Source of the DNA: a virus
Strand: one strand, 5' to 3'
Virus record (IMG/VR): IMGVR_UViG_3300031722_000008
Span: 32,001 to 96,000 of that record
DNA length: 64,000 nt
Shown in pieces: positions 1-40,817 of this stretch. A model generated the notes under the pieces. It was not told where the DNA came from, ran no database searches, and was given only the letters and a program-made list of their open reading frames with translations. The translations under genes were made by a program, and so were the position numbers. The first letter of the stretch is position 1, and the number at the start of each line of letters is the position of its first letter.

Positions 1-421
1 AGTCGAGTTGCTTTTGAGCAGAAGAGACTTCTTTAGTTGCCGCCCTACCTTCGCTATCAAATAAATTTTTTACAAAGCCTTGTTTTTGAGTTCTATCTAA
101 AATAGTTTTGTTTTTGATTTTTAAGCCATCAACATTCTTCTCTGCATCACCTATTTTTTTATTCAAATTAGGCAAATATTTATCTGTATCATTCAACTTG
201 CTATTAATCTTATCCATGTTATTTTTTATTGAATTGTATTCTGGACTACTATTCTTAAAATTATTGCCAAGAGATACCATATCATCTAATTTATTTTTGG
301 ATTCTTTCTTAGCTATTCCAGTAACATTAGATAGATACTTATTTTTCTTAACTAGCTTTGTTAGATTCTCAATAGAGTCATCTAATATTCCAGCAGTTTT
401 TTCAGGTTCACTTGGCTTTAT
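1..421 (-). CDS. Partial open frame, likely a -1 frameshift extension of the 418..1497 protein (runs off the window)
   Basis: Frame is stop-free from about 448 to 1 (IKPSEPEKTAGILDDSIENLTKLVKKNKY...). No start codon until about 280. Overlaps the slippery A-AAT-TTT-TTT site at 433-424. Confidence 0.65.
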   Translation of the reverse strand, partial: MKPSEPEKTAGILDDSIENLTKLVKKNKYLSNVTGIAKKESKNKLDDMVSLGNNFKNSSPEYNSIKNNMDKINSKLNDTDKYLPNLNKKIGDAEKNVDGLKIKNKTILDRTQKQGFVKNLFDSEGRAATKEVSSAQKQLD

Positions 422-1497
422 TGAAAAAAATTTTCTGGATCTAAAACCTCATCTGTAACTCCACAAGAAGCGCATTTTTCTCTTATTTTAATATATTCAT
501 CATTTTTTTCAGAAAGAGTATTTACACATTGTTTAAAGTCACTAGCTAATTTAACAATATCATCAATACTTCTTAACGACTTATTTGTAGATAAAAGAAT
601 ATTTGGTATTTCAGTATCACAAACAACACTTGCAATTTTGCTTAATGAATATTTACCTAGTGTAAATTTTTCACTAGCTTTTTTCTCAACATCAATATTG
701 TTTAGCTCAACCGAGAAATTATCATGTAGTGCCTTTCTTTCTTTGTACATAGCTATTCTTTCTTCGGTAGCTTCCTTAATTAAGCCTATTTCTCTCTCAT
801 TTAAATTAGCTGATTTTACTATTGCGGACATAACTTCATTAACATCTGAGCCTAATTTTTCAAGGCTTATAAAAGTATCTCCTAATTCATTACAATAATG
901 CATAACTTCTTTTGAGATTTTATTAAGTTCATCTTCTTTTCTATCTAGCGTTTCTGCTATTTTTTTTAAGAAGAAATCTCCTCTTGAATATTTCATATTA
1001 ACAGACAAATCACCGAAGCTATGATCAAGATTACCGTTAAATAAATCATAGTGTTCATCACTTGCGATTTTTTCCATATATTCATCATCGATTTTATTTT
1101 GCTCGAAAGCAACTTTTTCTGATTTTTTAGGTTCATCTGTAGGCTCTGTCTTATCGGAATCAGAAGATGAACTTTCACCTCTCATACATTTCTTTACACC
1201 ATCGATTGATGCTATATTAAATTCAACTTCTCTATCTGCACCAACTAACTTCTTGTATTTTATTAGGTATACTTGATTATTAACTTCTTCAACAATTCTA
1301 TGAATCTGATCATCATTCATGTTTTCTCTTTTAGCAATCTTTGCTATTGCTTGATTTAAGTCAATATTGAATTTTAGAAATTCGGAAATAACCACATCTC
1401 TATATTCTAATATTTTTCTTGAAAAATCAGTAGATAAATCTCTCTTGTTTTGTAGATCATAACTTCCATCTGACAATGCTTGTAATAATGTTGACAT
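418..1497 (-). CDS. Putative virion/head-associated protein with multiple KxA motifs
   Basis: Long ORF directly downstream of the terminase. Contains EKVAF, EKIAS, EKKAS, SKIAS, VKLAS and EKCAS. Confidence 0.5.
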   Translation of the reverse strand: MSTLLQALSDGSYDLQNKRDLSTDFSRKILEYRDVVISEFLKFNIDLNQAIAKIAKRENMNDDQIHRIVEEVNNQVYLIKYKKLVGADREVEFNIASIDGVKKCMRGESSSSDSDKTEPTDEPKKSEKVAFEQNKIDDEYMEKIASDEHYDLFNGNLDHSFGDLSVNMKYSRGDFFLKKIAETLDRKEDELNKISKEVMHYCNELGDTFISLEKLGSDVNEVMSAIVKSANLNEREIGLIKEATEERIAMYKERKALHDNFSVELNNIDVEKKASEKFTLGKYSLSKIASVVCDTEIPNILLSTNKSLRSIDDIVKLASDFKQCVNTLSEKNDEYIKIREKCASCGVTDEVLDPENFFQ

Positions 1498-1521
1498 TTT
1501 TATCACTTCTTTCTTATTTAT

Positions 1522-3153: not shown

Positions 3154-3162
3154 AGAATCACC

Positions 3163-4017
3163 CTACTCTTGCTGTTCTTGTTGTTTTTTTAATCTATGCT
3201 TCTTGAAATTTACTATATTTTCAGGAGTGGCAAAATAAGTAGGTAATGCTGCAACTTCTTGTGCGGCTGCCATAGGAGCTAATGCTGCTCCAACTTTAAG
3301 TGCGCGCTTTGCAACTCTAACTGAATTATCTCCCATTTTTTTACTTACCATTTTTTGGAATTCAGGATTACTTGCCGCATCTACTGTAGTTGCTTTATTT
3401 GATAGGTCTTTAAAATCTCTAGCAAATATCTTTCCACTGGCACCAACTCTTCCCAATGATTGTTCTAGGTTTTTACCTATTTCACCACGAATAGCCTTAC
3501 CTTTCTTTAATCCGTATAAACCTCCCCATAATGCTGCAACTGGTGCTGTGCTTGCGCCTATAGTTGCGGCGATACTTTTAGCATCAGGAGCTGTTCCAAA
3601 TTCTTCTTTGTGTTTTTTATATAATTGATAAGTAGGAATTGTTGCTCCTCCTGCGATATCACCAATTGCCATGCCTGCCATGCCACCATGAACCAAAGCT
3701 TTATTGAATGGCATCTTGCCTTTTTTCATAGCGAGAGCAGTACCAGCTATACCTCCAATTTTCATTGCAGTATCTTGTGCTTCGCCATTAACCATCCCTG
3801 TTGCAATACTCTTGCCTACTGTCTTTACACCACTTTTTATCTTAGCTTTACCTTCATCATTACTTAAAGCGTATGCGCTACCTAATGCTCCTGCACCTAC
3901 ACCTGTTCCTATTCCAACTTTTTTAATTAAACCTTTATTTTTGTTGAACATTTTAATTGCTTTTTCTTTTATGCTTGCAGTCTTTTCTATAGATTCAATA
4001 TAATATTCCTTATTCAT
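3163..4017 (-). CDS. Gly/Ala-rich hydrophobic protein with N-terminal YYIESIEKTA tag
   Basis: GGAGGTG RBS, glycine-zipper segments, tag at residues 5-14. Confidence 0.6.
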   Translation of the reverse strand: MNKEYYIESIEKTASIKEKAIKMFNKNKGLIKKVGIGTGVGAGALGSAYALSNDEGKAKIKSGVKTVGKSIATGMVNGEAQDTAMKIGGIAGTALAMKKGKMPFNKALVHGGMAGMAIGDIAGGATIPTYQLYKKHKEEFGTAPDAKSIAATIGASTAPVAALWGGLYGLKKGKAIRGEIGKNLEQSLGRVGASGKIFARDFKDLSNKATTVDAASNPEFQKMVSKKMGDNSVRVAKRALKVGAALAPMAAAQEVAALPTYFATPENIVNFKKHRLKKQQEQQE

Positions 4018-4121
4018 AACAATTATCACCTCCATCAAATTTATTATATATCAATCAATAGATTGTAACAACTTATTGATGAAAGGCTAATAATTGTGTA
4101 TGATTAATTTGAGGTGATAAT

Positions 4122-6104: not shown

Positions 6105-7721
6105 CTAACTACTAAACTTATTTTTTATCTTTTGAATTAAACTTTCTTTTGGTCTCATTTTACGGTTATTTTCATCAAGTAAATTATATAGTAGTTGATT
6201 TTGTTTAGCCTTATTATCAGCTATTTCATAAATAACTTCATCAGGAGTCCTATATGGAGATTTAAATAAACCTAACGTTTTTGGCATAGTAGATAGATAC
6301 CTATTTACTTCGACCTTTCGTTCGCCCTCCGCCCGTTTCGATTGACCGAACGCTCTTATTCCTCTGGCTTCCATTTGCTTCATTCTTTCTGGATTATAGT
6401 GACCATCTAAGGCACCTTCCCATGTAGTATCTCCAAGAGATAATCCTTCTGCTCCTGCCCCACTTATAAGCATTACTCTTTTCTTTCTAGCATTATAATC
6501 ATTAACATCATTCTGTCTAGTTTCTTCTGTAACTCCTTTATTACCCTTACCTATAAACTTTCCATAACTTATTCCTCTATCCTTAAGTCCTGCTTCTAAT
6601 ACATCAGCTCCACCATTAATCATATTAGTTAGTAGTATTGCTTGACCATCAGGAGTTGTCTTTAAATGTTCTTGCATATCACTAAGCATCTTATCTGTTT
6701 TTGGTGATAGCCTTGAACTTTCTTTTAGTGATATTCCAGGAACTACTGAACCAACACTATTAACTAATTTTCTTGCTTCTATCATACGATTAAATGCTTT
6801 TGATATTTCATCATCTTTTAGGGTTTCTAATCTTTTTTGTTTTATTATTTCTCTTAGTTTAGGGTCATTCTTAATTAATTGCTTATAATATTTAGCTTGC
6901 TCTTTAGATAATGGAACTTTTTCGGTATGAGTTTCTTTAAGTGGAATCTTGGCCATAGGTCTAACATCATCAACGCTAGCATAGTCAACATATTTAGCTA
7001 AGTCACCTTGCAATCTTTTCTTATTGTTAAAACCAGTAACAGGAACTCTATTCTCCTTAAGTCCTTTATATTTAGGTGAAGTACTTCTCTTTAGATAATT
7101 CTTATCAAAATCTTTCGAAGTAGCACCTAGATGATGTTCGCCTTGTGAAGCTAAATCAACTAAATTGTACATATCAGGAATATGATTATTTACTATAGAG
7201 CCTGTTAATCCTATAAAATTCTTGTATTTATCTCTAGTGCTTTTGAAACTATCTAATGTCGCAGTATCATTATTTCTAAGCTTATGCATTTCATCAGCTA
7301 TGACTGTGTCAGCACCAGTATCCCTTAAGATAGCTTCAGGATTTTTCCTGAACATTTCATATGAAATTATATTATAGTCAGAATCTTTATTGGGTGCATG
7401 ACCTGTTCCTTTTGATATCTCACCCATATTACCCACAATATTATATTTACTGTCCGTAAATTTTTTTACACCATCATTTCCAAAATTATGTCTTAAACTT
7501 GCTGGAGTAACTACGAGTGCTTTGTTCGCTAAGCCTTTTTCTTTCATCTTTTCGAACTTAGCTATCGATGATAATGTTTTACCACTTCCAACATCGTGCG
7601 CAACAATCATACTGTTTGATGGATTATCAACTACACGTTTTTGAAACGGATTAAATTCTATATCATCATGAAGTTTTGCTTGTTTCTCTATTTGCTCTTT
7701 ATATTTATCTCTTTTCATCAC
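6105..7721 (-). CDS. SNF2-family (SF2) helicase/translocase with N-terminal YKEQIEKQA tag
   Basis: DVGSGKT, VVTPASL, DEMH, LTGS, GAEGLSL and QMEARGIR motifs. Confidence 0.85.
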   Translation of the reverse strand: MMKRDKYKEQIEKQAKLHDDIEFNPFQKRVVDNPSNSMIVAHDVGSGKTLSSIAKFEKMKEKGLANKALVVTPASLRHNFGNDGVKKFTDSKYNIVGNMGEISKGTGHAPNKDSDYNIISYEMFRKNPEAILRDTGADTVIADEMHKLRNNDTATLDSFKSTRDKYKNFIGLTGSIVNNHIPDMYNLVDLASQGEHHLGATSKDFDKNYLKRSTSPKYKGLKENRVPVTGFNNKKRLQGDLAKYVDYASVDDVRPMAKIPLKETHTEKVPLSKEQAKYYKQLIKNDPKLREIIKQKRLETLKDDEISKAFNRMIEARKLVNSVGSVVPGISLKESSRLSPKTDKMLSDMQEHLKTTPDGQAILLTNMINGGADVLEAGLKDRGISYGKFIGKGNKGVTEETRQNDVNDYNARKKRVMLISGAGAEGLSLGDTTWEGALDGHYNPERMKQMEARGIRAFGQSKRAEGERKVEVNRYLSTMPKTLGLFKSPYRTPDEVIYEIADNKAKQNQLLYNLLDENNRKMRPKESLIQKIKNKFSS

Positions 7722-8544
7722 TATGCCTCCTAAACTTACTTAATCCATAAGCTCCAAGTCCAATACCAGCTGTCCCGATTCCAATTCCAAGTGCAAGCTT
7801 TTTATTTATTCTTGATTTAGGTATATTTCTTATTTTATCTTTATATTTCTCTTTGTTTTTATAGCAATGATCAATTATTATTTTGTCATTATCTCTAGCT
7901 AGATAAGCTTGAAACGGTTTTTTCTGAACATAATCCATTCTTGATATTTCTAAGTCCTTTTTAAATTGATTACTCATATCCTTATTGACAGATATTTTTT
8001 TGCCATAATTTTTCAAACCATCATTTTTAGGATCTAATAGGCTTCTTGATAATTTCAATTTTTTAGGGAAAGATTTATTCTCGTAATATGGAGAGAATGC
8101 TCCCTCATTCATCATTTGAGCATCAAAACCATGAGTTCCCTTTACTATAGCATTTCTCTTCGAAACAGCATTATAGAGTTCTTTATCTCCCTTGCTTAAT
8201 TTTTTTACTCCTGAAAACTTATCAAATACATTTAACATTGCTTTCTCGGATTTACTCATGTTTGAGTTCTTGATATCAAAATCAGCAAGTGATTTTGGTG
8301 ATACTATATTTGTCTTACCACCCTTAGAATTTATTTGCTGAAATTCTTTATCATCCACAATATCATTCATATCCCATTTTTCTATTAAATTTTTATTCCC
8401 TAGTTCCACACCCTTTGCAATTTCGGAATTACTCTTTCCTACAGTTTTAATTAATTTATTTCGATTTTTATTTGATAACTCATGATATTTCTCTTTCCAT
8501 TTTGTTGCAGCTTGCTTTTCTATTTGCTCTTTATATCGATTCAA
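7705..8544 (-). CDS. Tagged protein (MNRYKEQIEKQA) with C-terminal Gly-rich hydrophobic segment
   Basis: TTG start with GAGGAG RBS. C-terminal LALGIGIGTAGIGLGAYGL. Confidence 0.65.
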   Translation of the reverse strand: MNRYKEQIEKQAATKWKEKYHELSNKNRNKLIKTVGKSNSEIAKGVELGNKNLIEKWDMNDIVDDKEFQQINSKGGKTNIVSPKSLADFDIKNSNMSKSEKAMLNVFDKFSGVKKLSKGDKELYNAVSKRNAIVKGTHGFDAQMMNEGAFSPYYENKSFPKKLKLSRSLLDPKNDGLKNYGKKISVNKDMSNQFKKDLEISRMDYVQKKPFQAYLARDNDKIIIDHCYKNKEKYKDKIRNIPKSRINKKLALGIGIGTAGIGLGAYGLSKFRRHSDEKR

Positions 8545-9223: not shown

Positions 9224-10006
9224 TTAATAGTTTAATGAATATCTTGCCTCATTTCTTATTCTATCTAAGTTTGGAGATACCTTATTTTGTGCGTGATTAA
9301 AGGCACCATTTTGATCCATCGCTACTCCAGTTAATCTTCCGAAACCTGCTCCAAGTCCTGCACCTAATCCTCCAGAAAGAACAACTTTCCCTAGTCTATT
9401 AGTTGTTCCTCCTGCCAATCCTAATCCTAATCCTGCTAATGCTCCAACTCCAGTTCCAATCTTAAGACCTGTCTTTTTTGCAGTTAAACTATCATATTTA
9501 TTTTGATATTCTTTAGAGCTGTAGACATTACTTATTGATGAATCTAACTCTTTATATTTATTTAAAGTATCTTCACTAACCCTTTTATTAGTCTTATGAG
9601 CAACTAATACTTTCATAATATCTTCATTCATACCATTAACTAAAGCTGATTGTATATCATTTCTGATATGAGGTTTCAGATCATCTTGAAGAGAATTTGG
9701 TAGTCTCCTATACCAAATAGAATTAGTTACATCACTCAAATGTTTATCGGTCTTTTCGCGTATAGATAAGGCTTCATTATTAGTCTTTTGGTGTTTTGCT
9801 TCGTTGCTTCTCGTCGGAGTGCTCGTCGCATATCTCGTCGCACTCCTTGTATGTTGATTAATATCGTTCTTATATTGTTCTTTAGTCTTTTTGAACTGAC
9901 CACTTCTAAATCCACTATCTGCTGATTGATTGGAATTACCTCCAAAATCTCCGCTTCTGTATTCGCCAGTTACTGCCTCTTTTTCAATTTGTTCTTTGTA
10001 ATTCAT
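9224..10006 (-). CDS. Tagged protein (MNYKEQIEKEA) with C-terminal glycine zipper
   Basis: Tag at the start. GTGVGALAGLGLGLAGG and GGLGAGLGAGFG segments. Confidence 0.65.
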   Translation of the reverse strand: MNYKEQIEKEAVTGEYRSGDFGGNSNQSADSGFRSGQFKKTKEQYKNDINQHTRSATRYATSTPTRSNEAKHQKTNNEALSIREKTDKHLSDVTNSIWYRRLPNSLQDDLKPHIRNDIQSALVNGMNEDIMKVLVAHKTNKRVSEDTLNKYKELDSSISNVYSSKEYQNKYDSLTAKKTGLKIGTGVGALAGLGLGLAGGTTNRLGKVVLSGGLGAGLGAGFGRLTGVAMDQNGAFNHAQNKVSPNLDRIRNEARYSLNY

Positions 10007-10007
10007 A

Positions 10008-11591
10008 TTACAATACACCTTCCTCTTCGCCCATATTCGTTTTAAAAATTTTTGAACTTAAGTCATTAAACTTATCTCTTGCAGGCTGTAACTTATTTGA
10101 AATTGCCCTAATCTTATTCTTGGTATCACTTGCTATCATTGATGCCCTTGGCTTTGCAACCTGTAGTCCGTTTCTTATTCCTTCTTTAGCAATATCCAAA
10201 TCTCTTTGTGACATCGCTAAAAGTGGAAAGGGTGCATCAAAAAGAGTATCGAAAGCATTGTCCTTAACTATTTTAGTTACTTTTTGAACAACTGGAGATT
10301 CTCTTAATTTTTTTCCATACATTTTTCCTCCAGCAAATATTGCTTGTTTTTCTATTTCCTCTATATAGTATTCCTTAGATTTCTTCTCAAAGTTAGAAGA
10401 TTTTTTTCCTTTAAGCTGATTCATAATATGGCTTTCTGATACTTTAAATAGTTTTAATCCATATTCCTTTGCCATATCCTTAAAACTATTAAATTGTTCT
10501 TCAAAGACTATGTGTATATCTTTATTTGTAGTTATGCTCTCAATATCATTCTTATATCTTAGAGGCTTAAAATCACCTTTTATTTTGTACATCGAACAAG
10601 GTTTGTTTATATCTACATCACTAGTATATTTTAATACTGTGCCTGTGTAGTTGCTTTCCGTAGGAACTTTACTATCCTTAGTCAGTACATTGAATCTAGC
10701 AGTACCATCATTCCACTTTAATCCAAAAGCAGCAGAGAAAGAAGGATATTTAGACGCGAATAAAACATCTCCTTTGTTGTTTCCTGATGTATCTTCTGAT
10801 AATCTAAATTTCTTTATTCCTTGAACTGGTGAAGCATGATAATAAACATTTTCTCCAGCTTCTTTTTCAATACTATTATCATTATCCTCGCTAGCTGTGC
10901 TTTTGATGAAAGAAAACTTTCCTATAGCACCTTTTAATGTTGGTGCAGTAGCACATGCTCTATGAGTGTAGCAGAAGTATATAGTTTCTCCACTAGGCAT
11001 AAATGCTTTCGATATACCTAATTCTCCATTATTATACCAAACCGCCTTACCCTCTCTTACTATTTTCTTTTCATCAGAAGTTAAAGGTATTTGATATTTT
11101 TTAAGATCTTTCATTTTGTATCTTTTCTCGGCTACTTTATCAAATCCACTAAGTATCTCATTTGCTTTTTGTTCAATAAGTTCTTCTATGCTTTTTTCTG
11201 CTCCACCTGTGTATTTACCATAATATACAGGAACTTCTTTGATTCCTTTAAATTCGCAAGCTTCCTTTCTATGATGTCCATCAAGCAAAATAGAATGACC
11301 TTTTGTTTGAGGGGTAATTCCTTGGAATTTATCTACCACCATGAAAGGATTAATATTTCCAGGCTTTATAGTTTCTGCAATATTAAACACCTTTTCTTTA
11401 TTTACAGGTTTATCGATACCTTGTAGTTTATCTATCTTCATCATTTTCTTTTGCCATTTATAATTCTTTACAAGTTTTATTGCACCATCTTCATTAGGTG
11501 TCTTGTATTCATGGGAAGTAGCAATCATATAAGCTACTTCTCTATCAATGGAACCTTTCAGAAATGCCCTATCTATCTTCTCTAATTTCAT
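10008..11591 (-). CDS. Multi-module protein: ParB/Srx-like domain, small domain, ADP-ribosyltransferase-like domain and tail, separated by EKxA linkers
   Basis: ILLDGHHR (ParB/Srx) and YYHASPVQGIKKF...LFASK (ART-like). Linkers QKANEILSGFDKVA, IEKEAG and YYIEEIEKQA. Confidence 0.55.
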   Translation of the reverse strand: MKLEKIDRAFLKGSIDREVAYMIATSHEYKTPNEDGAIKLVKNYKWQKKMMKIDKLQGIDKPVNKEKVFNIAETIKPGNINPFMVVDKFQGITPQTKGHSILLDGHHRKEACEFKGIKEVPVYYGKYTGGAEKSIEELIEQKANEILSGFDKVAEKRYKMKDLKKYQIPLTSDEKKIVREGKAVWYNNGELGISKAFMPSGETIYFCYTHRACATAPTLKGAIGKFSFIKSTASEDNDNSIEKEAGENVYYHASPVQGIKKFRLSEDTSGNNKGDVLFASKYPSFSAAFGLKWNDGTARFNVLTKDSKVPTESNYTGTVLKYTSDVDINKPCSMYKIKGDFKPLRYKNDIESITTNKDIHIVFEEQFNSFKDMAKEYGLKLFKVSESHIMNQLKGKKSSNFEKKSKEYYIEEIEKQAIFAGGKMYGKKLRESPVVQKVTKIVKDNAFDTLFDAPFPLLAMSQRDLDIAKEGIRNGLQVAKPRASMIASDTKNKIRAISNKLQPARDKFNDLSSKIFKTNMGEEEGVL

Positions 11592-11611: not shown

Positions 11612-12082
<471 letters not shown>

Positions 12083-12212
12083 TAATTTTCCTCCTATCAT
12101 ATAATTATCATAGGTTCATTATAACTTAATTTATTATTTTTTAAAAATAATAATAAATGGTATAAGATATTTGTAAATAGAACAAATAATAAAAGAAGGA
12201 AGGATGATTTAC

Positions 12213-12973: not shown

Positions 12974-13654
12974 TTAATAGAAACTATTTATTTCATTTTT
13001 TCCTCTTTCAATATCATCATATAATCTACTTCTGTCATGATCAACATCATGAAGATCATCTCTTCTCTCTTGTGGCGCTTCTTTAGGCATTACACCACAC
13101 ATTGCTCCACATTGAGGGCATCTACCATCCTCACTATCAGGCTTTCCTGCATAGCCACATTGTTCACAATTAATATCACCCATATACCCCGAAAGCTTTA
13201 GTAGTGCTTGTTTCTCTATTTTATTTTTATAGTATTCTTTTTTTTCATCTTCTTCTGTTACGGAATTTACCATTCTTCTTTTCTCATCTTCATTTGGACT
13301 TTCTTGAACTTCCTTTTCCTCATCAGTCATCTTATTATCTTCGTCATGAGGAATTTCCATATCTGCTTTTTTGAATACCCCAAGAGCAGCAGAACCTAAT
13401 TTCTTAGCGGCACTAACACCTGGACCTGCTGCTAATCCACCAAGAGCTAATCCACCCATAACTCCACCAGCTATATTTCCAGCCTTTTCATCCGGAGAAG
13501 CACCAGGATTAGCTTCATTAGCTGATACACCCTTCATTGAGCCGATTCCAGCCCCAAGCAATGCTCCGCCAGTTGTTCTACCTAGAAATTTACCTACTTG
13601 AGCAAATCCAGCAGTTTTAAGTATTTCTTCACTTAAATTATTTATTTCATTCAT
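12974..13654 (-). CDS. Tagged two-module protein: glycine zipper plus Zn ribbon
   Basis: EEILKTAG and internal YYKNKIEKQA, followed by CEQC...CPQC. Confidence 0.6.
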   Translation of the reverse strand: MNEINNLSEEILKTAGFAQVGKFLGRTTGGALLGAGIGSMKGVSANEANPGASPDEKAGNIAGGVMGGLALGGLAAGPGVSAAKKLGSAALGVFKKADMEIPHDEDNKMTDEEKEVQESPNEDEKRRMVNSVTEEDEKKEYYKNKIEKQALLKLSGYMGDINCEQCGYAGKPDSEDGRCPQCGAMCGVMPKEAPQERRDDLHDVDHDRSRLYDDIERGKNEINSFY

Positions 13655-15100: not shown

Positions 15101-15721
15101 ATGAAGATAACAAAAAATACAATGCAAGAAAGTTTAGATAAAGCCCTAGAAATATTTTCGAAAAACGTAATAAAACCTAACTGTTCAGTCATAATAAAAT
15201 ATATCAATGACGAAGATTTCATAGCAAGTGCAAAGGATACACAATTCAATTCTATGCTAATTAATTCTAAATTCTACGAAGATTTCGATAAGGAATATAA
15301 AAGTTTTGCAGCAGTCTATCCGATGGACAAAACTCAAATAATTAAACTTATGGGATTACCTTATCGAATATCAATATCTTTAGACAGAGCCAAAAGAGTG
15401 CTTTCTAAAGAAAGCACTAAAAATACAAAGGAATATCTTTTACATGTTTTCTTCCATGAATTAACACATTTATTTGAGGACGAAATAAAAGATAAATACA
15501 GTGAATGCTATGATATAATTTCAAACAAATATAATAGTGAAAATCATATAAATGAAATGCTTGCAGAAACATTTTCTTATAAATATACTGACCATGTACG
15601 TTGCGATGAAATGGAGAAGAGATTGAATTACAAATTATATAAAAGGCTTAATAATCAGAGAATAAATATAGTGCATCATGATGATGAGAAAGAAATGACG
15701 GAATACATGAAATATATTTAA
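15101..15721 (+). CDS. Zincin-like (HExxH) protein
   Basis: FFHELTHL...EMLAETF. Confidence 0.55.
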   Translation: MKITKNTMQESLDKALEIFSKNVIKPNCSVIIKYINDEDFIASAKDTQFNSMLINSKFYEDFDKEYKSFAAVYPMDKTQIIKLMGLPYRISISLDRAKRVLSKESTKNTKEYLLHVFFHELTHLFEDEIKDKYSECYDIISNKYNSENHINEMLAETFSYKYTDHVRCDEMEKRLNYKLYKRLNNQRINIVHHDDEKEMTEYMKYI

Positions 15722-16029
15722 TTAATTTCAATGTTCCATCTAGCCTCAAAAGGCTTCTTTGTTTCTTTGATACCTTTTATATTTTTTGTTTTGAATCTCC
15801 TAATTTCATTTTTTGTAGTATCGAACCCCCAAAAATCATCACCTGAAAGTTTGTAGGGTTCAACCAATCTTTTTGTTTTAGTACCTTTTTTGTCTTTGTA
15901 AGATATCTCTAAGAGATTTTTATTGAGACCACAATTTTTAATTTTGTTGATTCTTTTATCATTCATAGTTAATTCTTGTGCCTGTTTTTCAATATAATCC
16001 TTATATTTATTTCTAAGATGAATATTCAT
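15718..16029 (-). CDS. Stand-alone WYL-domain protein with YKDYIEKQA tag
   Basis: LEISYKDKKGTKTKRLVEPYKL...GFD....IRRFK..NI matches the WYL pattern. Confidence 0.7.
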   Translation of the reverse strand: MNIHLRNKYKDYIEKQAQELTMNDKRINKIKNCGLNKNLLEISYKDKKGTKTKRLVEPYKLSGDDFWGFDTTKNEIRRFKTKNIKGIKETKKPFEARWNIEIN

Positions 16030-16098
16030 TAATATCAACTCCTTGATTCTTATTTTAATCAAGGAGTTGATTAGTATCAATAAGAAAGAGGGAGATTT

Positions 16099-22263: not shown

Positions 22264-22333
22264 ATATTCTCCTCCTAATGTTTTATATTTATAGTATAAG
22301 ATATTAAACAAGATATAGAAAGAGGTGAAATTA

Positions 22334-22483
22334 ATGAAAAACAAAACAGTAGCAATAGTATTGGGATTAGGAATACTAGGAATAGTAGCATACAGAAAAA
22401 TAGAAGGAGTGATGTTTCAGAAATACTATTTAATCGCACAAGGCGAAGAAATAAGTAAATATAGAGATTCAATAAAGAAATAA
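22334..22483 (+). CDS. 49-aa single-pass membrane protein (not in the ORF track)
   Basis: MKNKTVAIVLGLGILGIVAYRK..., GAGGTG RBS, motif at 22294, terminator at 22483-22510. Confidence 0.65.
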   Translation: MKNKTVAIVLGLGILGIVAYRKIEGVMFQKYYLIAQGEEISKYRDSIKK

Positions 22484-22506: not shown

Positions 22507-23697
22507 TTATTTCTTTTCAATTATGTCATTAACTATATCCATAGCTGTTTTTGCTAAAGCTTTTTTTGTAGATATAACACCTGCTCCATGAGTTAAGTTA
22601 TTTTTCTTACCTCTTTCAGCTTCTTCATTTTTTACAATTGTAGCTTTAGAAAGTTTATGATCTAATCCTTTTTCAGCTTCTTCTTTTCTTACACTTTCAG
22701 CTTTGCCAAGCTTATGATTTAATCCATGATGTTCTTCTTCCTTTTTCGTGATAGTAGCTTTCGCAATTGGAGAAGTTACACTTCTTGCAGCTTCTTCTTT
22801 TTTTGTGATTTCAGCTTTAGGTACTGGCGATTTCAAGCCTCTTTCTCTTTCTTCATTTAGTGTAATTGTAGCTTGAGCGATTTTTTCAAAAGTATCACTA
22901 ACTACAGTGCTTGCTTCTTTTTCAGCTAATGCTCTTCTTCTTTTCTTTTGAATTACAGCTTCTGGTGTTGTTCCAAGACTTGCTGCTAATCCTACTAATC
23001 CCATACCAGGAGCATGTTGACTTAATCCACTAGCAGCATAATTAGCAGCACCACCTAATTGTGTTTTTAAGTGCTCTTCCTTGCCTGCTTTTCCTCCGAT
23101 ATATTTTTCATGCAACTTATTAGTATCGTGAGCCCTAAATGCTGCATTTGCTCCAGCACTACCTATCCCCAATACTCCTAATTGCTTTGCACTTAACTGA
23201 CCCATATTTCCTTTACTATGAGAATGCGCCATCATTGCTATTCCAACAGGTAACATTGCTCCGAAAGTTTTAAAGCCTCTTCCGAATTCTGGAGCAATTC
23301 TATCTCTCCACATTCTAGTTTCAGTATCATCATCTCTATCTCTTGCAATTTTTTCGAATTGATCTTCGATTATATCGCTAGCCGTTTTTTGTTTTTTACT
23401 TCCAGCAGCATATCCTGCTCCAGTTGCACCTGCAAGACTTGCTGCACCTACTCCAGTAGCCACCCTTGCGTTCTTTGTCGCAGAACTTGTACTGTCAGCT
23501 TTAGCTTTAGCTTTATCAGCTATATCGCTTATTCTTTGCATGTGAGCTCCTTGATTAGATAAATTTTTGCTTCCATTTGCTGGATCAGTAAGTCTTGTTG
23601 ATGCTTTATCTAATGCTCCCTCTGCTTTATTGAGCGCTCCTTTTGCCTTTTTCAATGTCTTTCCTGTGATTAAATTTTTGTATTCGTTGAAACCCAT
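22507..23697 (-). CDS. Three-module tagged polyprotein-like protein
   Basis: Linkers QKTASDIIEDQFEKIA, EKEASTVVSDTFEKIA and KTAMDIVNDIIEKK. The last module has KATITKKEE-type repeats. Confidence 0.6.
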   Translation of the reverse strand: MGFNEYKNLITGKTLKKAKGALNKAEGALDKASTRLTDPANGSKNLSNQGAHMQRISDIADKAKAKADSTSSATKNARVATGVGAASLAGATGAGYAAGSKKQKTASDIIEDQFEKIARDRDDDTETRMWRDRIAPEFGRGFKTFGAMLPVGIAMMAHSHSKGNMGQLSAKQLGVLGIGSAGANAAFRAHDTNKLHEKYIGGKAGKEEHLKTQLGGAANYAASGLSQHAPGMGLVGLAASLGTTPEAVIQKKRRRALAEKEASTVVSDTFEKIAQATITLNEERERGLKSPVPKAEITKKEEAARSVTSPIAKATITKKEEEHHGLNHKLGKAESVRKEEAEKGLDHKLSKATIVKNEEAERGKKNNLTHGAGVISTKKALAKTAMDIVNDIIEKK

Positions 23698-29090: not shown

Positions 29091-30236
29091 TTACCTTTTC
29101 TTTTTTTGTTCATCAAGCATTGATTTTGTTTTCATTCCTGTATTATATTGCATATGAGAAGATGATGCATTCAATGCTCCCCCAGCTACTCCTGTTCCTA
29201 GAGTAGTTAATGCGGTAAGCGCTCTTTCTCCACCTTCTGATACTTTCTTTCCACCGTAATAGTTTTTAGAAAGGTCCTCACCTACATCTTGCAATTTAGA
29301 ATTTATATCTCTAACTCTTTTACCTGAATCAGCCATACCTTTCATGTGATTTAATGCTTCTTCCTGTTCTTTCTTTGATAACCTCTTGCCCTTTTTAGCT
29401 GCATTAAATAGTTGTTCGGCTTTATCTACGCCACCCATTGTTTTATTAGATTCCCTCATTAAATCGCCACCAAGTCCTTGGAATTCGGATAGCTTACCTA
29501 GTGATTTAGTGTATTTCATTACTCTTTTTGGATTAAAGGAATCCATACTTCCTTTTGCCATATTCATAAGATTATGTGATAACCCTGGCATTTTCTTTCT
29601 TACTGCAAGTGCTGCTGCCCCTGTCATTGCTGCTGGCATTAATGCGCCTGTTGCTGCTCCACTAATAAATCCACTGGCGTCTCCTACAGCTTTATGAATC
29701 TTATGATGCTTTTCATTTTGCAGAGAGTTTCTAAATGTACTAACTCCTGTTGGGTCAAACCCCGATACAAAATCTTTCATATATGATGATTCTGCTAATT
29801 TTTCACAAGCTATCTTTTCTATTTGTTCTTTATAATTCATATTTGCCTCCTTATTCATCCAATTATTAAATTTACCTATTTGCTCAATCAAGTGTTTCGG
29901 ATTACCATCAAAGCATACTGCATTATCATCGACATACATTATTGCTGGTGGTTTTTCTTTTGCCACCCCATCTACTTTAATATCATATTTTTCTAGCCAT
30001 TTTTTAATAGCATCTATCCCACCTTTTTGGAAACATCTGGTAGATACAACAACGATTTTATAATCTTGCCTTAATTTATCTATAGCTTCTTTTATTCCCT
30101 CTACTGGTTTATCAGGTATATTGGTTGTTCCTTTCCAACCACTAATATAGGAGTGAATCACTCCGTCAAAATCAAACACTATGGTTTTTTTAGCGCTTGC
30201 TATTTTTTCTATTAATTTCTTATAATTCAACATCAT
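29091..30236 (-). CDS. Two-module tagged protein: HAD-like phosphatase plus Gly-rich module
   Basis: NYKKLIEKIAS start, FDFDGV...VVVSTR...YVDD (HAD motifs), internal KEANMNYKEQIEKIACEKLA. Confidence 0.7.
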   Translation of the reverse strand: MMLNYKKLIEKIASAKKTIVFDFDGVIHSYISGWKGTTNIPDKPVEGIKEAIDKLRQDYKIVVVSTRCFQKGGIDAIKKWLEKYDIKVDGVAKEKPPAIMYVDDNAVCFDGNPKHLIEQIGKFNNWMNKEANMNYKEQIEKIACEKLAESSYMKDFVSGFDPTGVSTFRNSLQNEKHHKIHKAVGDASGFISGAATGALMPAAMTGAAALAVRKKMPGLSHNLMNMAKGSMDSFNPKRVMKYTKSLGKLSEFQGLGGDLMRESNKTMGGVDKAEQLFNAAKKGKRLSKKEQEEALNHMKGMADSGKRVRDINSKLQDVGEDLSKNYYGGKKVSEGGERALTALTTLGTGVAGGALNASSSHMQYNTGMKTKSMLDEQKKKR

Positions 30237-30374
30237 CAACTCCCTTCCTCCTTAGTATAAAATAAAAATAAGAAATAAGAAAGCTAATAAACTTTCGAAA
30301 TTTATGGTATAAGATATTAAAGCAGAAGAGCAACGATATCGTTGCTCTTCTCTAATTTTATGGAGGTATTAAAA

Positions 30375-32457: not shown

Positions 32458-32781
32458 TTACATCTTTTCAAAAGCTTCATCAACTATATCACTAGCTGTC
32501 TTTTGATTAGAAGCATATGCACCTCCAGCAGTTAATGCTCCAACACCTGCTCCTGTCCCAATCCTAGCTTTGTTTGTTGCTGACTTCGTAGCTTTCATAG
32601 CTTTCTCTGCATTCATTCTTTGTTCTGTAGCTCTATCAACTATAGCTGAACTTTTTAAATCTCCAGTCATATGCCTACCTTGTAAATAAGCATGATTTTT
32701 ACTTGTAGCTTCAAAAAGCCCCTCTGCCTCTTTTAATGATTTTCCATTGATTAAGTTCTTATAGGCGTTAAGTTTTCCCAT
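32458..32781 (-). CDS. Small tagged protein, paralog of module 1 of 22507..23697
   Basis: YKNLINGKSLKEA vs YKNLITGKTLKKA, and QKTASDIVDEAFEKM vs QKTASDIIEDQFEKIA. Confidence 0.7.
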   Translation of the reverse strand: MGKLNAYKNLINGKSLKEAEGLFEATSKNHAYLQGRHMTGDLKSSAIVDRATEQRMNAEKAMKATKSATNKARIGTGAGVGALTAGGAYASNQKTASDIVDEAFEKM

Positions 32782-37075: not shown

Positions 37076-37168
37076 AAAAGGAGGGCGAAAGCCCTCAAAA
37101 TCTTTGCTATCTTGTGGTATAAGAAATTAAAGAATACGTAATAAATAAAAAGAAAGAGAGTGATAAAT

Positions 37169-37525: not shown

Positions 37526-37568
37526 AAAAGGAGGGCTTTCGCCCTCAATATCTTTTTTTCTTTTATAT

Positions 37569-40500
37569 TTACATTGCACCGCCATTGTTTACGTTTGGTT
37601 GAGGTATTGTAGATAATGTGCCTGCTGCTCCATTCACATTTTTAACTGCTTTAGAAGCTGCATCAGTAGTTGCTCCGAACATTGTATCTGTCCCTGCTTC
37701 TTTTTCTTCTTTATCTTTATCTGATTTCTTGCTAAAGTCTAACTTATCTTTATCAATAGATTCATCTAAGCATTTAGCTATCTTATAGATGTTATCGATA
37801 GTTGCTACAGCACGATTAATATCATTCTTATCAACACCTGTATCGATATTGTGATAAGTTCCATTAACCTTGAGTGCAGTTAAATCATAAGCTATCTTTT
37901 CTAATACTGGTCTTGCAAGGCTTATATCAGATACAACTTCTTTGATGTTTGGATATAAATTATTGTTATCCTCAATTATAGTTGCAAGCTTTTCAGATAA
38001 ATTATATCCGATACCTAATATTCTAGCTACATCTAAGTATTCTTCTGACTCATGTGTTTGAGCATACTTTTCAAACTTAGGTGATAACTCTGCAGTTTCA
38101 TTAGCTAATTTACCTAGAATATTTCCAGCCTTAAATACAGCACCACCTGGTGTAGCCATATTAACAACAGATTTGGTAATCATAGCTCCCATAACTGTCG
38201 AAGCCAATGTCTTAGCAATATCTAGTGGGTTTACATATTTTTGAACAATATTCTTAACTGCTCGAGTAGATACATTTGTCATTGCTCCACCTTGAAGTTT
38301 TTGAATATCTTGTGCAGTACATTCAGCTGGTATTGGGTAACTAGCTCTTGGTTCATTCTTAGCTTTGTATATAATTTCATTTAGCTTATTTCCTTGGAAT
38401 CTAAGTATTCTAAGAACAGCACGAACTTTACCCTCTTTAATTCTATTGAAGTTTTGATTTCTTAGATTAAAGAATCTTTGATTAGTATCCTTATAATCAA
38501 CAAAGACGTTGTATATGCCTACTCTTCTATCAACACATTCAACAACTACAGTGTTAAGAGCAAAGGCAACCTTTTCTACATCATAACCTGCATCATGTAA
38601 TTGATTCTTTGTATCAAACTCATTTTGGTCCTTAAAGTTAGTTGTTATAATTCCAGCAATTTTAATTACTTTTGAATGAGGATCTGCAACAACTACTTCT
38701 TTTTGAGTTCTACCTGAATAACTCATTAGTGAATTGATGATATCTTCCGATAACCCTGATTCCTTTGCTTTCGCAGTTAAGAAATCTTCATGTGATACTT
38801 GTTCAAACTTGTGTTCATCTAGAGTATAGATATCTGTGCTGTCTGAGTTCACAGTCTTTCCACTAAATAAACTGTTTGTATATCCTGAATTGATTGGCTT
38901 ACAGTTATAGTAATAACCAACAGTACTTATCTTATTTTCTCCTATTGAATTTCCATAAGATAAATTACCTATAAATCCAATGTTTAATGGGATTGTAACC
39001 TTATCGCCATTAAGTGCAAAGAAGTTATCATTATTTTGTAGAGCCCTAAGTTCTGTAGTTACAAGTTTGAAAGCTGAATCTACTTTCTTACATAAGAATG
39101 CATCTTTTTCTAAGATTTTAATTCTTCCATCGTTCGCACATACAAACTTAAACCCAGCAGTTTTTCCACTCATGAATGATGTATCAAGGTTAGATAAAAC
39201 TATTCCTGGTGTCATAGAAACTTGACCATCTTTTATTTCAGGGAATACAATAAATGTTCCATGATCGAAATGTCTTGCATCTTCAAATTTAAACTTGACC
39301 ATTTTTTCAGCATTGTCCAGGTCTTTTCTAGTAGGTGTTTGCTTTTCTTCATCAGCTGCTAATTTTTCAAGTTCATCTCTAGTATTCATGGCTGCTCTTT
39401 TATTTAAAACAAATGCAATAGTATTCATTTCTTCTTCTGTCATAGGTTTTAAACTGGCAACTTTTTCCATGATTGCATTTAAATCAGTAACGACGAAAGT
39501 TTCACCTGCATGTTTCTTGAATTGATTTCTAAGAGAGCCTAATTCTTCTAAGCCTTCGTTAGAGTGTGGTTTCTTTGTGAAATTACCAAATATTGCCTTG
39601 AAGTTATTTTTACCATCCTCAACGAAACGCTTCATGTGATCACTAGCTTCTTTATCTATATTTCCATTATCAAGTTTCATTCCGGATTCTCTTAGTATTG
39701 TTTTGACTGCATCTTCCCCATCCATTGGTGCTGGTACTGTTGACTTTTCTCTTTCAACATCTTGAAGTGCCTTATCGAATCCATCAGCTAAATCTTTTCT
39801 ATGAGAACTCCAACCAAGTCCCATAGCATCATATTCATCAGCAGATTTTTCTAATAATCCAGCTGGTGTAGGATTAGAGTTACCAATAAATTCTATTTCA
39901 CCTAACATATTTTCTGATGCAGTCTTATCTGTACCATCAGCTAAATCTTTCTTTAGATTTTCATAAAACTCATGAGTTGAAGATTTCTTTTCAGCTTTAT
40001 TTTTTGCTTGGCATTGTTCATGGAACTCTGCTTCTTTAATTAAATCGTCCAAGGTTTCGCTTGCTGACTTCAATTGAGAATGAGTATCGAATGATAAATC
40101 TCCATCTTTATTGAGAACACTTATCATTTGGTCAGTTGTTAAATCTTGGATATTCTTTTCACTGTAGTTACTAGCAGTCTTCTCTAGTTCTGTGAACTCT
40201 GATGACGCAGTGACGTATCTGCCTGACCCTGGAGTGTAACTTTGAGAATCTCTAATAGACAGCACATCTCCCATGAATCCGGGTGCTGTTGATGGATTGG
40301 TATAATCTGCCAATCCTTGGTATGGTGAGCCATCGCTTTCGCCTGACTGTTCTTTCTCAAGCTGTCTGTCTAGGTTGATTATAATTTTTTGCAGATTTTC
40401 CCTAGAATATGGAACTCTTTGGTTGTCCATTTGAATGACATCAAAAGGCTCTAAATCACCTCCATGAATCATAAAGGGAAGTTCCACTATTTTGCTTCTA

Positions 40501-40817
40501 ACCTTGACTTGTACGGCACCTGTGCCATCTTCTACGAGGTTTTTTCGCACCTTGTCAAAACTAGAGGGTATAAAGGATACACCCACTTCCAGAACTCTTG
40601 GAAAGAAAGTAAGTTCATTATACATGTATTTTCTAATAAAGTCTTCTATATTTTCTTGAGTAGGGTTATCAATATAGATTCCAGCTATCTTTTCTAAACA
40701 AGTATTTTGAACTGAACTGGCTACCTTATCTATCTTTTCGTGATCTACTGTTTCATAATCAGAAGTTAGTGCTAATGAAGCCATCATAGCTTCACTCACG
40801 TTAATTGCTCTTTTCAT
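37569..40817 (-). CDS. Large putative virion protein with more than 15 KxA motifs
   Basis: 1082 aa with AGGAGG RBS. Contains DKVAS, EKIAG, EKTAS, DKTAS, EKSAD, DKEAS, EKVAS, EKLAA, EKVAF, EKIAY, EKEAG and others. Confidence 0.6.
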   Translation of the reverse strand: MKRAINVSEAMMASLALTSDYETVDHEKIDKVASSVQNTCLEKIAGIYIDNPTQENIEDFIRKYMYNELTFFPRVLEVGVSFIPSSFDKVRKNLVEDGTGAVQVKVRSKIVELPFMIHGGDLEPFDVIQMDNQRVPYSRENLQKIIINLDRQLEKEQSGESDGSPYQGLADYTNPSTAPGFMGDVLSIRDSQSYTPGSGRYVTASSEFTELEKTASNYSEKNIQDLTTDQMISVLNKDGDLSFDTHSQLKSASETLDDLIKEAEFHEQCQAKNKAEKKSSTHEFYENLKKDLADGTDKTASENMLGEIEFIGNSNPTPAGLLEKSADEYDAMGLGWSSHRKDLADGFDKALQDVEREKSTVPAPMDGEDAVKTILRESGMKLDNGNIDKEASDHMKRFVEDGKNNFKAIFGNFTKKPHSNEGLEELGSLRNQFKKHAGETFVVTDLNAIMEKVASLKPMTEEEMNTIAFVLNKRAAMNTRDELEKLAADEEKQTPTRKDLDNAEKMVKFKFEDARHFDHGTFIVFPEIKDGQVSMTPGIVLSNLDTSFMSGKTAGFKFVCANDGRIKILEKDAFLCKKVDSAFKLVTTELRALQNNDNFFALNGDKVTIPLNIGFIGNLSYGNSIGENKISTVGYYYNCKPINSGYTNSLFSGKTVNSDSTDIYTLDEHKFEQVSHEDFLTAKAKESGLSEDIINSLMSYSGRTQKEVVVADPHSKVIKIAGIITTNFKDQNEFDTKNQLHDAGYDVEKVAFALNTVVVECVDRRVGIYNVFVDYKDTNQRFFNLRNQNFNRIKEGKVRAVLRILRFQGNKLNEIIYKAKNEPRASYPIPAECTAQDIQKLQGGAMTNVSTRAVKNIVQKYVNPLDIAKTLASTVMGAMITKSVVNMATPGGAVFKAGNILGKLANETAELSPKFEKYAQTHESEEYLDVARILGIGYNLSEKLATIIEDNNNLYPNIKEVVSDISLARPVLEKIAYDLTALKVNGTYHNIDTGVDKNDINRAVATIDNIYKIAKCLDESIDKDKLDFSKKSDKDKEEKEAGTDTMFGATTDAASKAVKNVNGAAGTLSTIPQPNVNNGGAM

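What the first reader, a model, noticed from the sequence alone, without database searches (positions are those of the whole stretch)
418..40817. Shared YKxxIEKxA / FEKxA tag on unrelated minus-strand proteins: candidate capsid-loading and maturation system
Seen: at least 13 otherwise unrelated minus-strand proteins carry the same short helix ending in E-K-x-A. N-terminal examples are YYIESIEKTA (4017), DKYKEQIEKQA (SNF2), MNRYKEQIEKQA, MNYKEQIEKEA, LYKQEIEKQA, KYKDYIEKQA (WYL), MNYRNQIEKTA and NYKKLIEKIA (HAD). A second form, KxAsdii...FEKxA, occurs internally or at C-termini. I did not see the full tag in the terminase or in plus-strand proteins. Known: T4 internal proteins use a roughly 10-aa N-terminal capsid-targeting sequence (MKTYQEFIAE-like) removed by the prohead protease, and jumbo-phage head proteins are multiply cleaved at short motifs. 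Inference: this is an analogous portable address label cut after K-x-A, which packages a SNF2 translocase, ART-like, WYL, HAD and ParB domains and Gly-zipper proteins for injection with the DNA.
Basis: partly seen in the sequence, partly recalled or inferred. Interest (0 to 1): 0.9.

Follow-up and report, generated by a model that had tools for sequence, protein, structure and literature searches.

The report
Protease-site leader tags on phage cargo
An uncultured 160-kb phage puts the same short peptide ending Glu-Lys-x-Ala on its head proteins and on about ten unrelated enzymes and small proteins; it is most likely the cutting site of the phage's own T4-type head protease and a loading label for proteins carried in the capsid, a known kind of system in a version not yet described, with neither cutting nor packaging measured.

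Summary
In the whole 160,540-bp genome, [ILVMF]-E-K-x-A occurs 37 times in head and neighbouring minus-strand proteins, against 1.6 in shuffles. It occurs 0 times in the tail module on the same strand and is at background on the plus strand. Thirteen unrelated window proteins carry it. Eight start with an 11-17-residue leader (M..YKEQIEKQA).

The motif also lies at residue 30 of the major capsid protein, at residue 28 of the portal, and in three disordered linkers of a 785-aa protein. That protein's N-terminal domain has the T4 gp21 protease fold (Z 9.8).

Four related phage genomes keep the E-K-x-A core, but each has its own leader flavour. Cultured phages G, Arash and Vibrio D69 have K-x-A-S right after their homologous protease domains. 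Arash virions contain the SNF2 homologue and tagged proteins.

Best reading: a T4-CTS-like propeptide and cut-site code with a Lys-x-Ala core. This is a new variant of a known kind. Cleavage, the scissile bond, packaging and injection are all inferred. The ART label was not confirmed; ParB and HAD rest on sequence motifs or a sub-threshold match. This scan has noted similar tag systems on other phage DNA, including a [KR]-x-Ala one.

The parts
418..1506 (-). 362-aa head-region protein beside the terminase gene, with four EKxA sites (residues 130, 145, 274, 343) and five KxAS
   Evidence: Homologous to the Arash virion protein Gp220, which has EKTAS and EKAAS sites.
3163..4038 (-). Gly-zipper protein of about 284 aa with N-terminal leader MNKEYYIESIEKTA
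   Evidence: ribosome-binding site plus ATG; Ala at residue 14. No Pfam or PHROG match.
6105..7721 (-). SNF2-family helicase with leader M(M)KRDKYKEQIEKQA
   Evidence: Pfam SNF2-rel_dom 2.4e-22. Among 120 homologues an E-K-x-A site lies N-terminal of Walker A in 49, in most of them exactly 32 aa before it; many of the rest show h-x-K-x-A there with Tyr, Ala, Ile or Val for Glu. 28.6% identical to Arash helicase Gp217, which was detected in virions.
7705..8544 (-). 279-aa protein with leader (M)NRYKEQIEKQA and a C-terminal Gly-zipper
9224..10018 (-). Protein of about 260 aa with leader MNYKEQIEKEA and a C-terminal Gly-zipper
10008..11591 (-). 527-aa protein with a ParB-like DGHHR motif; internal sites SIEKEA (residue 242) and a full tag KEYYIEEIEKQA (residue 414)
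   Evidence: No Pfam or PHROG hit. An 882-aa homologue in G002 (65.6% local BLAST identity) also has sites.
11612..12100 (-). Gly/Ala-rich protein of about 156 aa with leader MSIELYKQEIEKQA
12974..13654 (-). 226-aa protein with an N-terminal Gly-zipper, an internal full tag KEYYKNKIEKQA (residue 147) and a C-terminal Cys4 zinc-ribbon-like part
   Evidence: Weak PHROG 342 'internal virion protein' match, E 0.0036.
15718..16080 (-). WYL-domain protein of about 103 aa with leader MNIHLRNKYKDYIEKQA
   Evidence: Pfam WYL, 23.9 bits against a cut-off of 21.8.
21328..22344 (-). Protein of about 311 aa with leader MNYRNQIEKTA and a C-terminal second-form module KEANEIIEECFEKIAGK
   Evidence: No family match.
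22507..23697 (-). 396-aa protein with three second-form modules (residues 104, 260 and 383, the last at the C-terminus) and a Gly-zipper
29091..30239 (-). 382-aa ORF made of leader M(M)LNYKKLIEKIA, a HAD-like domain, a second full tag MNYKEQIEKIA behind an in-frame AAGGAGG and ATG, and a Gly-rich tail
   Evidence: HAD_SAK_2 E 0.0038, below the cut-off.
32458..32781 (-). 107-aa paralogue of the first ~118 aa of 22507-23697, ending in KTASDIVDEAFEKM
   Evidence: 35% identity, E 1e-12.
37569..40817 (-). 1082-aa protein with 11 EKxA and 6 KxAS sites; a candidate multiply cut internal head or ejection polyprotein
   Evidence: Homologues in G001, G002 and G003 carry 4-8 sites each. No Pfam, PHROG or Atlas match.

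Best explanation
E-K-x-A (invariant core Lys-x-Ala, with a hydrophobic residue before the Glu and mostly Ser, Gly or Ala after the Ala) is the recognition site of this phage's T4 gp21-type prohead protease. The protease is the N-terminal domain of a 785-aa polyprotein (genome 299-2656, outside the window). It would cut itself free at linker sites, trim about 30 residues from the capsid and portal proteins, and chop the internal head proteins, including the 1082-aa and 362-aa window proteins. About ten unrelated proteins carry an 11-17-residue N-terminal amphipathic leader that ends in this site: the SNF2 helicase, the WYL and HAD-like proteins, and several Gly-zipper proteins. By analogy with the T4 capsid-targeting sequence, the leader would dock them to the scaffolding core of the prohead and then be removed, leaving the mature proteins inside the head to leave with the DNA. 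Shown: motif statistics, its location, its conservation, the protease fold, and virion presence of homologues in a cultured cousin. Inferred: cleavage itself, the scissile bond (probably Ala|Ser, as in herpesvirus assemblins), the targeting role of the leader, and injection.
For: Enrichment and specificity: 37 against 1.6 in head and cargo proteins, 0 in 11,095 aa of tail proteins on the same strand, plus strand at background, control motifs at background.
Head proteins carry it: the capsid protein (phrog_2522) has FEKFA at residues 30-34, and 116 of 120 homologues (down to 53% identity) have E-K-x-A near that position. The portal has QEKVAS at residue 28.
Protease: residues 33-197 of the 785-aa protein match T4 gp21 (5jbl) at Z 9.8, rmsd 3.0 A over 126 residues, with herpesvirus proteases at Z 5-6.5. 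It also hits phrog_18299, head maturation protease. Sites 223 and 556 lie in low-confidence linkers (196-262, 551-574) and site 717 lies just before the 724-756 one. 114 of 120 homologues have EKxA at residues 190-290; K224, A226, K557 and A559 are invariant.
Across the wider protease family, 90 of 95 distant representatives have x-K-x-A within 90 aa after the domain, against 37 in shuffles.
Cultured cousins: phage G gp19 has ILEKVAS after the domain, Arash gp222 VLEKVAN and Vibrio D69 VLQKVAS, with many sites in neighbouring head proteins.
Relatives G001-G004 are enriched on their structural strand. Each has its own leader flavour (MSQLLMEKIA, MEKISMEKIA); leader identity within a genome is 0.30 against 0.11 between genomes, reached by 0 of 5000 permutations.
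In longer SNF2 homologues the site lies between an extra N-terminal domain and the helicase, in most cases 32 aa before Walker A.
Arash virion mass spectrometry lists Gp97, Gp100 (which starts MEKQAS), Gp242 and helicase Gp217 (PMC10585845).
The T4 precedent for a roughly 10-residue propeptide that targets and is cut off is in PMC9026906.
Against: No proteomic or biochemical datum shows a cut at any of these sites in any phage of the lineage.
The virion RNA polymerase (2328 aa) has no site, and Arash packages its helicase homologue without a leader, so a leader is not required for packaging.
In the capsid protein and the SNF2 helicase the motif sits in a stretch that is conserved as a whole, so it could be structural there.
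The capsid protein model was too poor (pLDDT 56) to place the site relative to the fold.
Three second-form modules sit at extreme C-termini, where a cut after the last Ala would remove two residues or none. This suggests the peptide also has a binding role.
Leader-bearing genes are not more variable between relatives than other genes.
Confidence: 0.65

Rival explanations
1. Cut site only. K-x-A is the protease site, but the short leader is merely a removable cap, for example keeping enzymes inactive until they are inside the head. Loading would depend on something else: the Gly-zipper segments, the acidic K-x-A-S-D-I-I-E-x-x-F-E-K helix, or binding to DNA, RNA polymerase or scaffold.
For: RNA polymerase and the Arash helicase homologue reach virions without a leader. 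Nine tagged window proteins share Gly-zipper segments. The second-form module lies at C-termini, where cutting is pointless but docking is not.
Against: The part of the leader upstream of EKxA is homogenised within each genome and differs between genomes. This is expected for a peptide that binds a co-evolving partner and is not needed for a bare cut site. In T4 the equivalent 10 residues are sufficient for loading (PMC9026906).
Confidence: 0.2
2. Docking motif without cleavage. h-E-K-x-A is a short linear motif bound by a common partner (scaffold, portal, capsid interior or a chaperone) and is not cut.
For: Amphipathic helical context. Copies at extreme C-termini. No direct evidence of cutting.
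Against: The motif sits in predicted disordered linkers of the protease polyprotein and directly after the protease domain across hundreds of homologues, as self-release sites do in T4 gp21, SPN3US gp245 and herpesvirus proteases (PMC10052503). It occurs up to 11 times in one protein, and at domain junctions of fused SNF2 homologues.
Confidence: 0.1
3. By-product. The motif reflects Glu/Lys/Ala-rich helices of late proteins, recent duplication of a 5' gene segment, or an mRNA element for translation start.
For: The genome has 31.7% G+C and its proteins are rich in Lys and Glu. Several tags sit at gene starts.
Against: Composition-preserving shuffles give 1.6 against 37 observed. The reversed and near-miss motifs are at background. 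Tail proteins on the same strand have none. Upstream DNA is unrelated and tag codons vary synonymously. Internal and C-terminal copies exist. The motif is kept in relatives of 30-46% G+C and in Salmonella and Vibrio phages.
Confidence: 0.03

Closest known systems
Phage T4 capsid-targeting sequence (CTS, MKTYQEFIAE) of IPI-III and Alt, removed by prohead protease gp21
   Same: An N-terminal leader of about 10-17 residues on unrelated proteins. The leader ends in the motif that the head protease also finds in capsid, portal, core proteins and itself. The protease has the gp21 fold (Z 9.8). The cargo includes enzymes.
   Different: The motif is h-E-K-x-A with a Lys-x-Ala core, not L/I-x-Glu. The protease is fused to a helical region of about 560 aa in one polyprotein. 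About ten leaders occur per genome, and there is also an internal or C-terminal acidic module flanked by K-x-A. Nothing has been measured here.
Giant-phage prohead proteases and propeptides (SPN3US gp245 and phiKZ gp175; cut after A/S/G-x-Glu)
   Same: Many head and ejection proteins are cut, some several times. The protease removes its own C-terminal part. Both short (20-24 aa) and long propeptides occur (PMC10052503).
   Different: A different motif (P1 Glu there). Those phages do not show one uniform short leader on many unrelated enzymes.
Herpesvirus assemblin (cuts (V/L/I)-x-Ala|Ser at release and maturation sites; from my own knowledge, no paper retrieved here)
   Same: Same protease fold superfamily (Z 5-6.5). 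Here Ala is invariant and Ser is the commonest next residue (239 of the 558 sites tallied). There is a site directly after the protease domain within a protease-scaffold polyprotein.
   Different: Lys is fixed two residues before the Ala. This is a phage, not a herpesvirus. The scissile bond is not known here.
Head modules of Bacillus phage G (gp19) and Salmonella phage Arash (Gp222)
   Same: Homologous proteases (37% and 35% identity) with ILEKVAS and VLEKVAN after the domain. K-x-A sites occur in neighbouring head proteins. Arash packages the RNA polymerase, a helicase homologous to the window SNF2, and tagged Gp97, Gp100 and Gp242.
   Different: The Arash paper and the phage G preprint showed no described cleavage motif (Arash: 'protease' 0, 'cleav' 0; preprint: 'cleav' once), and a full-text search for 'EKxA' gave nothing on phages. 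Arash has few N-terminal leaders (MEKQAS, MEKVAS), whereas this phage has about ten long ones.

Membership tests
T4-type capsid-targeting-sequence (CTS) system | The phage encodes a prohead protease of the gp21/assemblin fold | tested here: met
   AF2 model residues 33-197 against 5jbl: Z 9.8, rmsd 3.0 A, 126 residues, 20% identity, well above the next row at 7.1. Hit to phrog_18299.
T4-type capsid-targeting-sequence (CTS) system | A short N-terminal leader shared by otherwise unrelated proteins | tested here: met
   Eight window proteins (ten in the genome) with a ribosome-binding-site-supported start and the Ala at residue 11-19. No similarity once the tags are masked.
T4-type capsid-targeting-sequence (CTS) system | The leader ends in the motif also present at processing positions of the capsid protein, the portal, core proteins and the protease itself | tested here: met
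   Capsid protein residue 30, portal residue 28, protease linkers at 223, 556 and 717, conserved in homologues. This shows the motif is present; it does not show cleavage.
T4-type capsid-targeting-sequence (CTS) system | The leader is cut off by the protease and is sufficient to load a foreign protein into the head | not testable with these tools
   Needs virion N-terminomics and leader-reporter fusions.
T4-type capsid-targeting-sequence (CTS) system | Cleavage motif L/I-x-Glu | tested here: not met
   The consensus here is [LMIF]-E-K-[VTI]-A-[SKG]; Lys and Ala are invariant and Glu is replaceable. It therefore works like a CTS system but does not use the T4 code.
Assemblin-type serine protease (MEROPS S21/S77-like) | Conserved catalytic His and Ser | tested here: inconclusive
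   H82, H87, S138 (in DVSMGC), H164 and H189 are invariant in 36 homologues. I did not map them onto the gp21 catalytic residues.
Herpesvirus-like Ala|Ser specificity | Ala at P1 and Ser at P1' | tested here: inconclusive
   Ala is invariant. The next residue is Ser in 239 of the 558 sites tallied in protease homologues and in 16 of 49 sites in this genome. The scissile bond is unknown.

The most novel reading that the evidence does not exclude
A very large clade of tailed phages shares a head protease that cuts after Lys-x-Ala, as herpesvirus proteases cut Ala|Ser, rather than after Glu. The clade's protease family counts 3963 representative clusters and includes megaphage G, Salmonella phage Arash, Vibrio phages and these Clostridia-associated 150-170-kb phages. 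These phages would use two portable signals to load a changeable set of enzymes and membrane-active proteins next to the virion RNA polymerase: a lineage-specific N-terminal leader and an acidic helix flanked by K-x-A. The enzymes include an SNF2 helicase, WYL and HAD-like proteins, and ART fusions in relatives.
Probability: 0.3. Interest if true: 0.7.

Novelty: new variant of a known kind. Interest (0 to 1): 0.55.

Why it matters
If the reading holds, one short motif lets the head-internal and probably injected proteome of a large, mostly uncultured phage lineage be read from sequence alone. It would extend the known specificities of gp21/assemblin-type proteases in phages from Glu to a Lys-x-Ala site that resembles the herpesvirus one. 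It would also supply a ready tag for loading foreign proteins into the heads of cultivable members (phage G, Arash), as the T4 CTS does for T4. The tagged set (SNF2 helicase, WYL, HAD-like and Gly-zipper proteins) is a list of candidate early host-takeover or anti-defence factors delivered before any phage gene is expressed.

Tried and rejected
Related genomes were reached instead through the search for related loci with a capsid-protein alignment and the fetch from genomes.
- A single-sequence capsid-protein scan of viral contigs found nothing.
- A back-translated YKEQIEKQA DNA pattern found nothing in viral contigs. The looser pattern Y-x3-I-E-K-x-A found only three single hits in four relatives. 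This showed that the leader flavour is lineage-specific.
- The capsid protein AF2 model was too poor (pLDDT 56) to place the site in the fold.
- phmmer of the protease domain against PDB sequences gave nothing useful; only fold comparison did.
- Pfam and PHROGs gave no support for the ParB or ART labels.
- The ESM Atlas gave nothing for the 1082-aa protein.
- I tried to use the 'coverage' column of Arash Table 2 to test loss of propeptides. It is not usable: Gp011 shows 100% with two peptides. The supplement holds only the feature table.
- Gonzalez et al. 2020 on phage G (PMC7316594) is not held.
- A search for 'EKxA' found no phage paper. Two searches for a paper giving the herpesvirus cleavage consensus failed, so that point rests on my own knowledge.
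- A test of whether leader genes are hypervariable between relatives was neutral.
- Mycobacteriophage Cali gp93 has a homologous protease domain with no clear K-x-A after it, so the code does not cover the whole protease family.
Full report
WHAT THE DNA IS. The window is bases 32001-96000 of a single 160,540-bp contig whose ends overlap, so it is a complete phage genome with 31.7% G+C. The terminase is only about 31% identical to any cultured phage terminase. Contigs that carry homologues were binned with Clostridia (Herbinix, Anaerovoracaceae, Paraclostridium). Tail and head genes lie on the minus strand at 123.6-160.5 kb. The head module runs across the contig ends. More minus-strand genes are scattered through 0-73 kb among plus-strand genes.

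Thirteen minus-strand window proteins carry E-K-x-A. Eight begin with a leader whose start codon has a ribosome-binding site and whose Ala falls at residue 11-17, typically M-N-Y-K-E-Q-I-E-K-Q-A. Three further full copies are internal.

In the whole genome, [ILVMF]EKxA occurs 37 times in minus-strand proteins against 2.7 +- 1.6 in composition-preserving shuffles, and 4 times against 3.0 on the plus strand. The reversed motif and four near-miss motifs are at background.

The enrichment is not a property of late genes or of the strand. The head-and-cargo set has 37 against 1.6, the tail module (29 proteins, 11,095 aa, same strand) has 0 against 0.8, and the RNA polymerase plus terminase have 0. 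With the tags masked, the tagged proteins share no detectable similarity. Upstream DNA is unrelated and tag codons differ at synonymous positions.

The second form, K-x-A-[ST]-[DE]-I-I-[DE]-x-x-F-E-K, occurs five times against 0.02 expected, three of them at C-termini.

WHERE ELSE THE MOTIF SITS. Outside the window:
- The major capsid protein (genome 157747-158778; phrog_2522) has F-E-K-F-A at residues 30-34.
- The portal (genome 25630-27501, homologous to Arash Gp204) has Q-E-K-V-A-S at residue 28.
- A 785-aa protein (genome 299-2656) has three sites.
- Of 120 capsid-protein homologues, down to 53% identity, 116 have E-K-x-A near that position.

THE PROTEASE. The AF2 model of the 785-aa protein has a confident N-terminal domain (residues 31-195, pLDDT about 90) followed by helical regions. 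These are separated by low-confidence linkers at 196-262, 551-574, 601-646 and 724-756. Sites 223 and 556 fall in such linkers, and site 717 sits just before the 724-756 one.

The domain matches the T4 capsid assembly protease gp21 first: Foldseek probability 1.00; VIA-align Z 9.8, rmsd 3.0 A, 126 residues, next unrelated row 7.1. Herpesvirus proteases follow at Z 5-6.5.

In 114 of 120 homologues an EKxA lies at residues 190-290, directly after the domain. K224, A226, K557 and A559 are invariant in a 36-sequence alignment. The site consensus is [LMIF]-E-K-[VTI]-A-[S>K>G].

The family is large, with 3963 representative clusters at E<=1e-3. Among distant members, 90 of 95 have x-K-x-A within 90 residues after the last strand, against 37 in shuffled tails. 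The typical form is L-x-K-V-A-S, 18 residues after the anchor. A self-release site right after the catalytic domain is what T4 gp21, SPN3US gp245 and herpesvirus proteases have (PMC9026906; PMC10052503).

RELATIVES. Four related IMG/VR genomes (capsid protein 57-71% identical) were fetched whole.
- All are enriched for EKxA on their structural strand.
- Orthologous head proteins keep their sites.
- Each genome has its own leader flavour ending in the same core: M-S-Q-L-L-M-E-K-I-A (about 12 proteins in G004), M-E-K-I-S-M-E-K-I-A (G003) and M-D-K-I-A-M-E-K-V-A (G001).
- The five residues before EKxA are 0.30 identical within genomes and 0.11 between genomes, a difference reached by 0 of 5000 label permutations.

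That homogeneity is expected if the leader binds a partner that co-evolves, or if leaders spread within a genome by recombination. A bare cut site would not need it.

In the 120 SNF2 homologues listed, an E-K-x-A site lies N-terminal of Walker A in 49, in most of them exactly 32 residues before it. In many other lineages Glu is replaced by Tyr, Ala, Ile or Val while Lys-x-Ala stays. In longer homologues with an extra N-terminal domain (PF18905, PF13619, or PF00644 of the PARP/ART type) the site lies at the junction.

CULTURED COUSINS. The closest cultured proteases are Bacillus phage G gp19 (37%), Salmonella phage Arash Gp222 (35%) and Vibrio phage D69 (36%).
- Phage G gp19 has I-L-E-K-V-A-S after the domain, and its portal has E-E-K-I-A-S near the C-terminus.
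- Arash Gp222 has V-L-E-K-V-A-N plus three more sites, and Gp218, 220, 221, 223 and 225 carry sites.
- D69 has V-L-Q-K-V-A-S and many [EDV]-K-x-A-S sites in neighbouring proteins.
- In Arash, EKxA totals 34 against 15.6 expected. It is concentrated in the head module and in Gp97, Gp100 (which begins M-E-K-Q-A-S) and Gp242, which lie outside that module.
- All of these, and helicase Gp217 (28.6% identical to the window SNF2, E 5e-35), are listed in the Arash virion proteome with hundreds to over a thousand spectra (PMC10585845).

This is the only experimental support available. It shows presence in particle preparations, not cleavage, and that preparation contained 116 of 272 proteins.

MECHANISM, WITH WHAT IS INFERRED. 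I read the system as a T4-CTS-like code. The protease polyprotein, scaffold-like proteins and tagged cargo co-assemble in the prohead. The protease then cuts at K-x-A. This would release itself, trim the capsid and portal proteins, fragment the internal proteins, and remove the leaders.

The scissile bond is unknown. I favour Ala|Ser because Lys and Ala are the fixed positions, because Ser, Gly or Ala follows, and because the related herpesvirus proteases cut (V/L/I)-x-Ala|Ser. That last point is from my own knowledge. A cut after Lys or after Glu is not excluded.

The targeting role of the leader is inferred from the T4 precedent and from the within-genome homogeneity.

Against a strict requirement for the leader: the 2328-aa RNA polymerase has no site, and the Arash helicase homologue has no leader.

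The C-terminal copies of the acidic second-form module suggest a second docking peptide that can be clipped off.

Injection of the cargo and any anti-defence role are speculation.

COMPARISON AND NOVELTY. The kind is known: the T4 CTS with gp21, and giant-phage propeptides. Three things are new here:
- the motif, with a Lys-x-Ala core in place of x-Glu;
- its reach across a very large protease clade that includes cultivable phages in which it could be tested at once;
- the combination of about ten uniform leaders, internal full tags at apparent gene-fusion joints, and a second acidic module.

The Arash paper and the phage G preprint showed no described cleavage motif, and no phage paper holds 'EKxA'. 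This scan has already noted many CTS-like tag systems on other phage DNA, including a [KR]-x-Ala one and an Ala-cutting one, so the general phenomenon is recurrent. I class this finding as a new variant of a known kind.

Noticed in passing
window 29780-29860 (inside ORF 29091-30239, minus strand): The internal second tag MNYKEQIEKIA is preceded in frame by AAGGAGG and an ATG. Either two tagged genes have fused or there is an internal translation start. G004 has a similar internal MSQLLMEKVA behind a Met.
   Followed up: partly
window 32458-32781 and 22507-23697 (minus strand): The 107-aa ORF is a paralogue of the first ~118 residues of the 396-aa protein (35% identity, E 1e-12). The shared unit is an N-terminal helix, a Gly-zipper and KTASDI[IV][DE]xxFEK.
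   Followed up: yes
whole genome, plus strand; in the window at 8617, 14262, 16432, 20924, 22294, 24035, 24290, 30307, 31924, 40906, 50383 and 50899: The 15-mer GTATAAGATATTAAA occurs 18 times, all on the plus strand, and never before the tagged minus-strand genes.
   Followed up: partly
genome 299-2656 (L001:299-2656, minus strand), outside the window: The head protease is not a stand-alone protein. It is the first ~200 residues of a 785-aa polyprotein whose remaining ~560 residues are helical and separated by conserved K-x-A linkers, possibly a fused scaffold. Homologues range from 690 to 1247 aa.
   Followed up: partly
SNF2 homologues P0245-P0349: Relatives fuse extra N-terminal domains to the SNF2 helicase (PF18905, PF13619, and PF00644 of the PARP/ART type in P0337), usually with a K-x-A site at the joint.
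   Followed up: partly
Salmonella phage Arash OQ632216.1 172528-172995 (minus strand): An unannotated 154-aa ORF starting MEKVAS lies between gp240 and gp241. It is a possible missed tagged gene.
   Followed up: no
PMC10585845, Table 2: The column headed 'Coverage' cannot be true sequence coverage (for example 100% for Gp011 with two unique peptides), so it should not be used to infer processing.
   Followed up: yes
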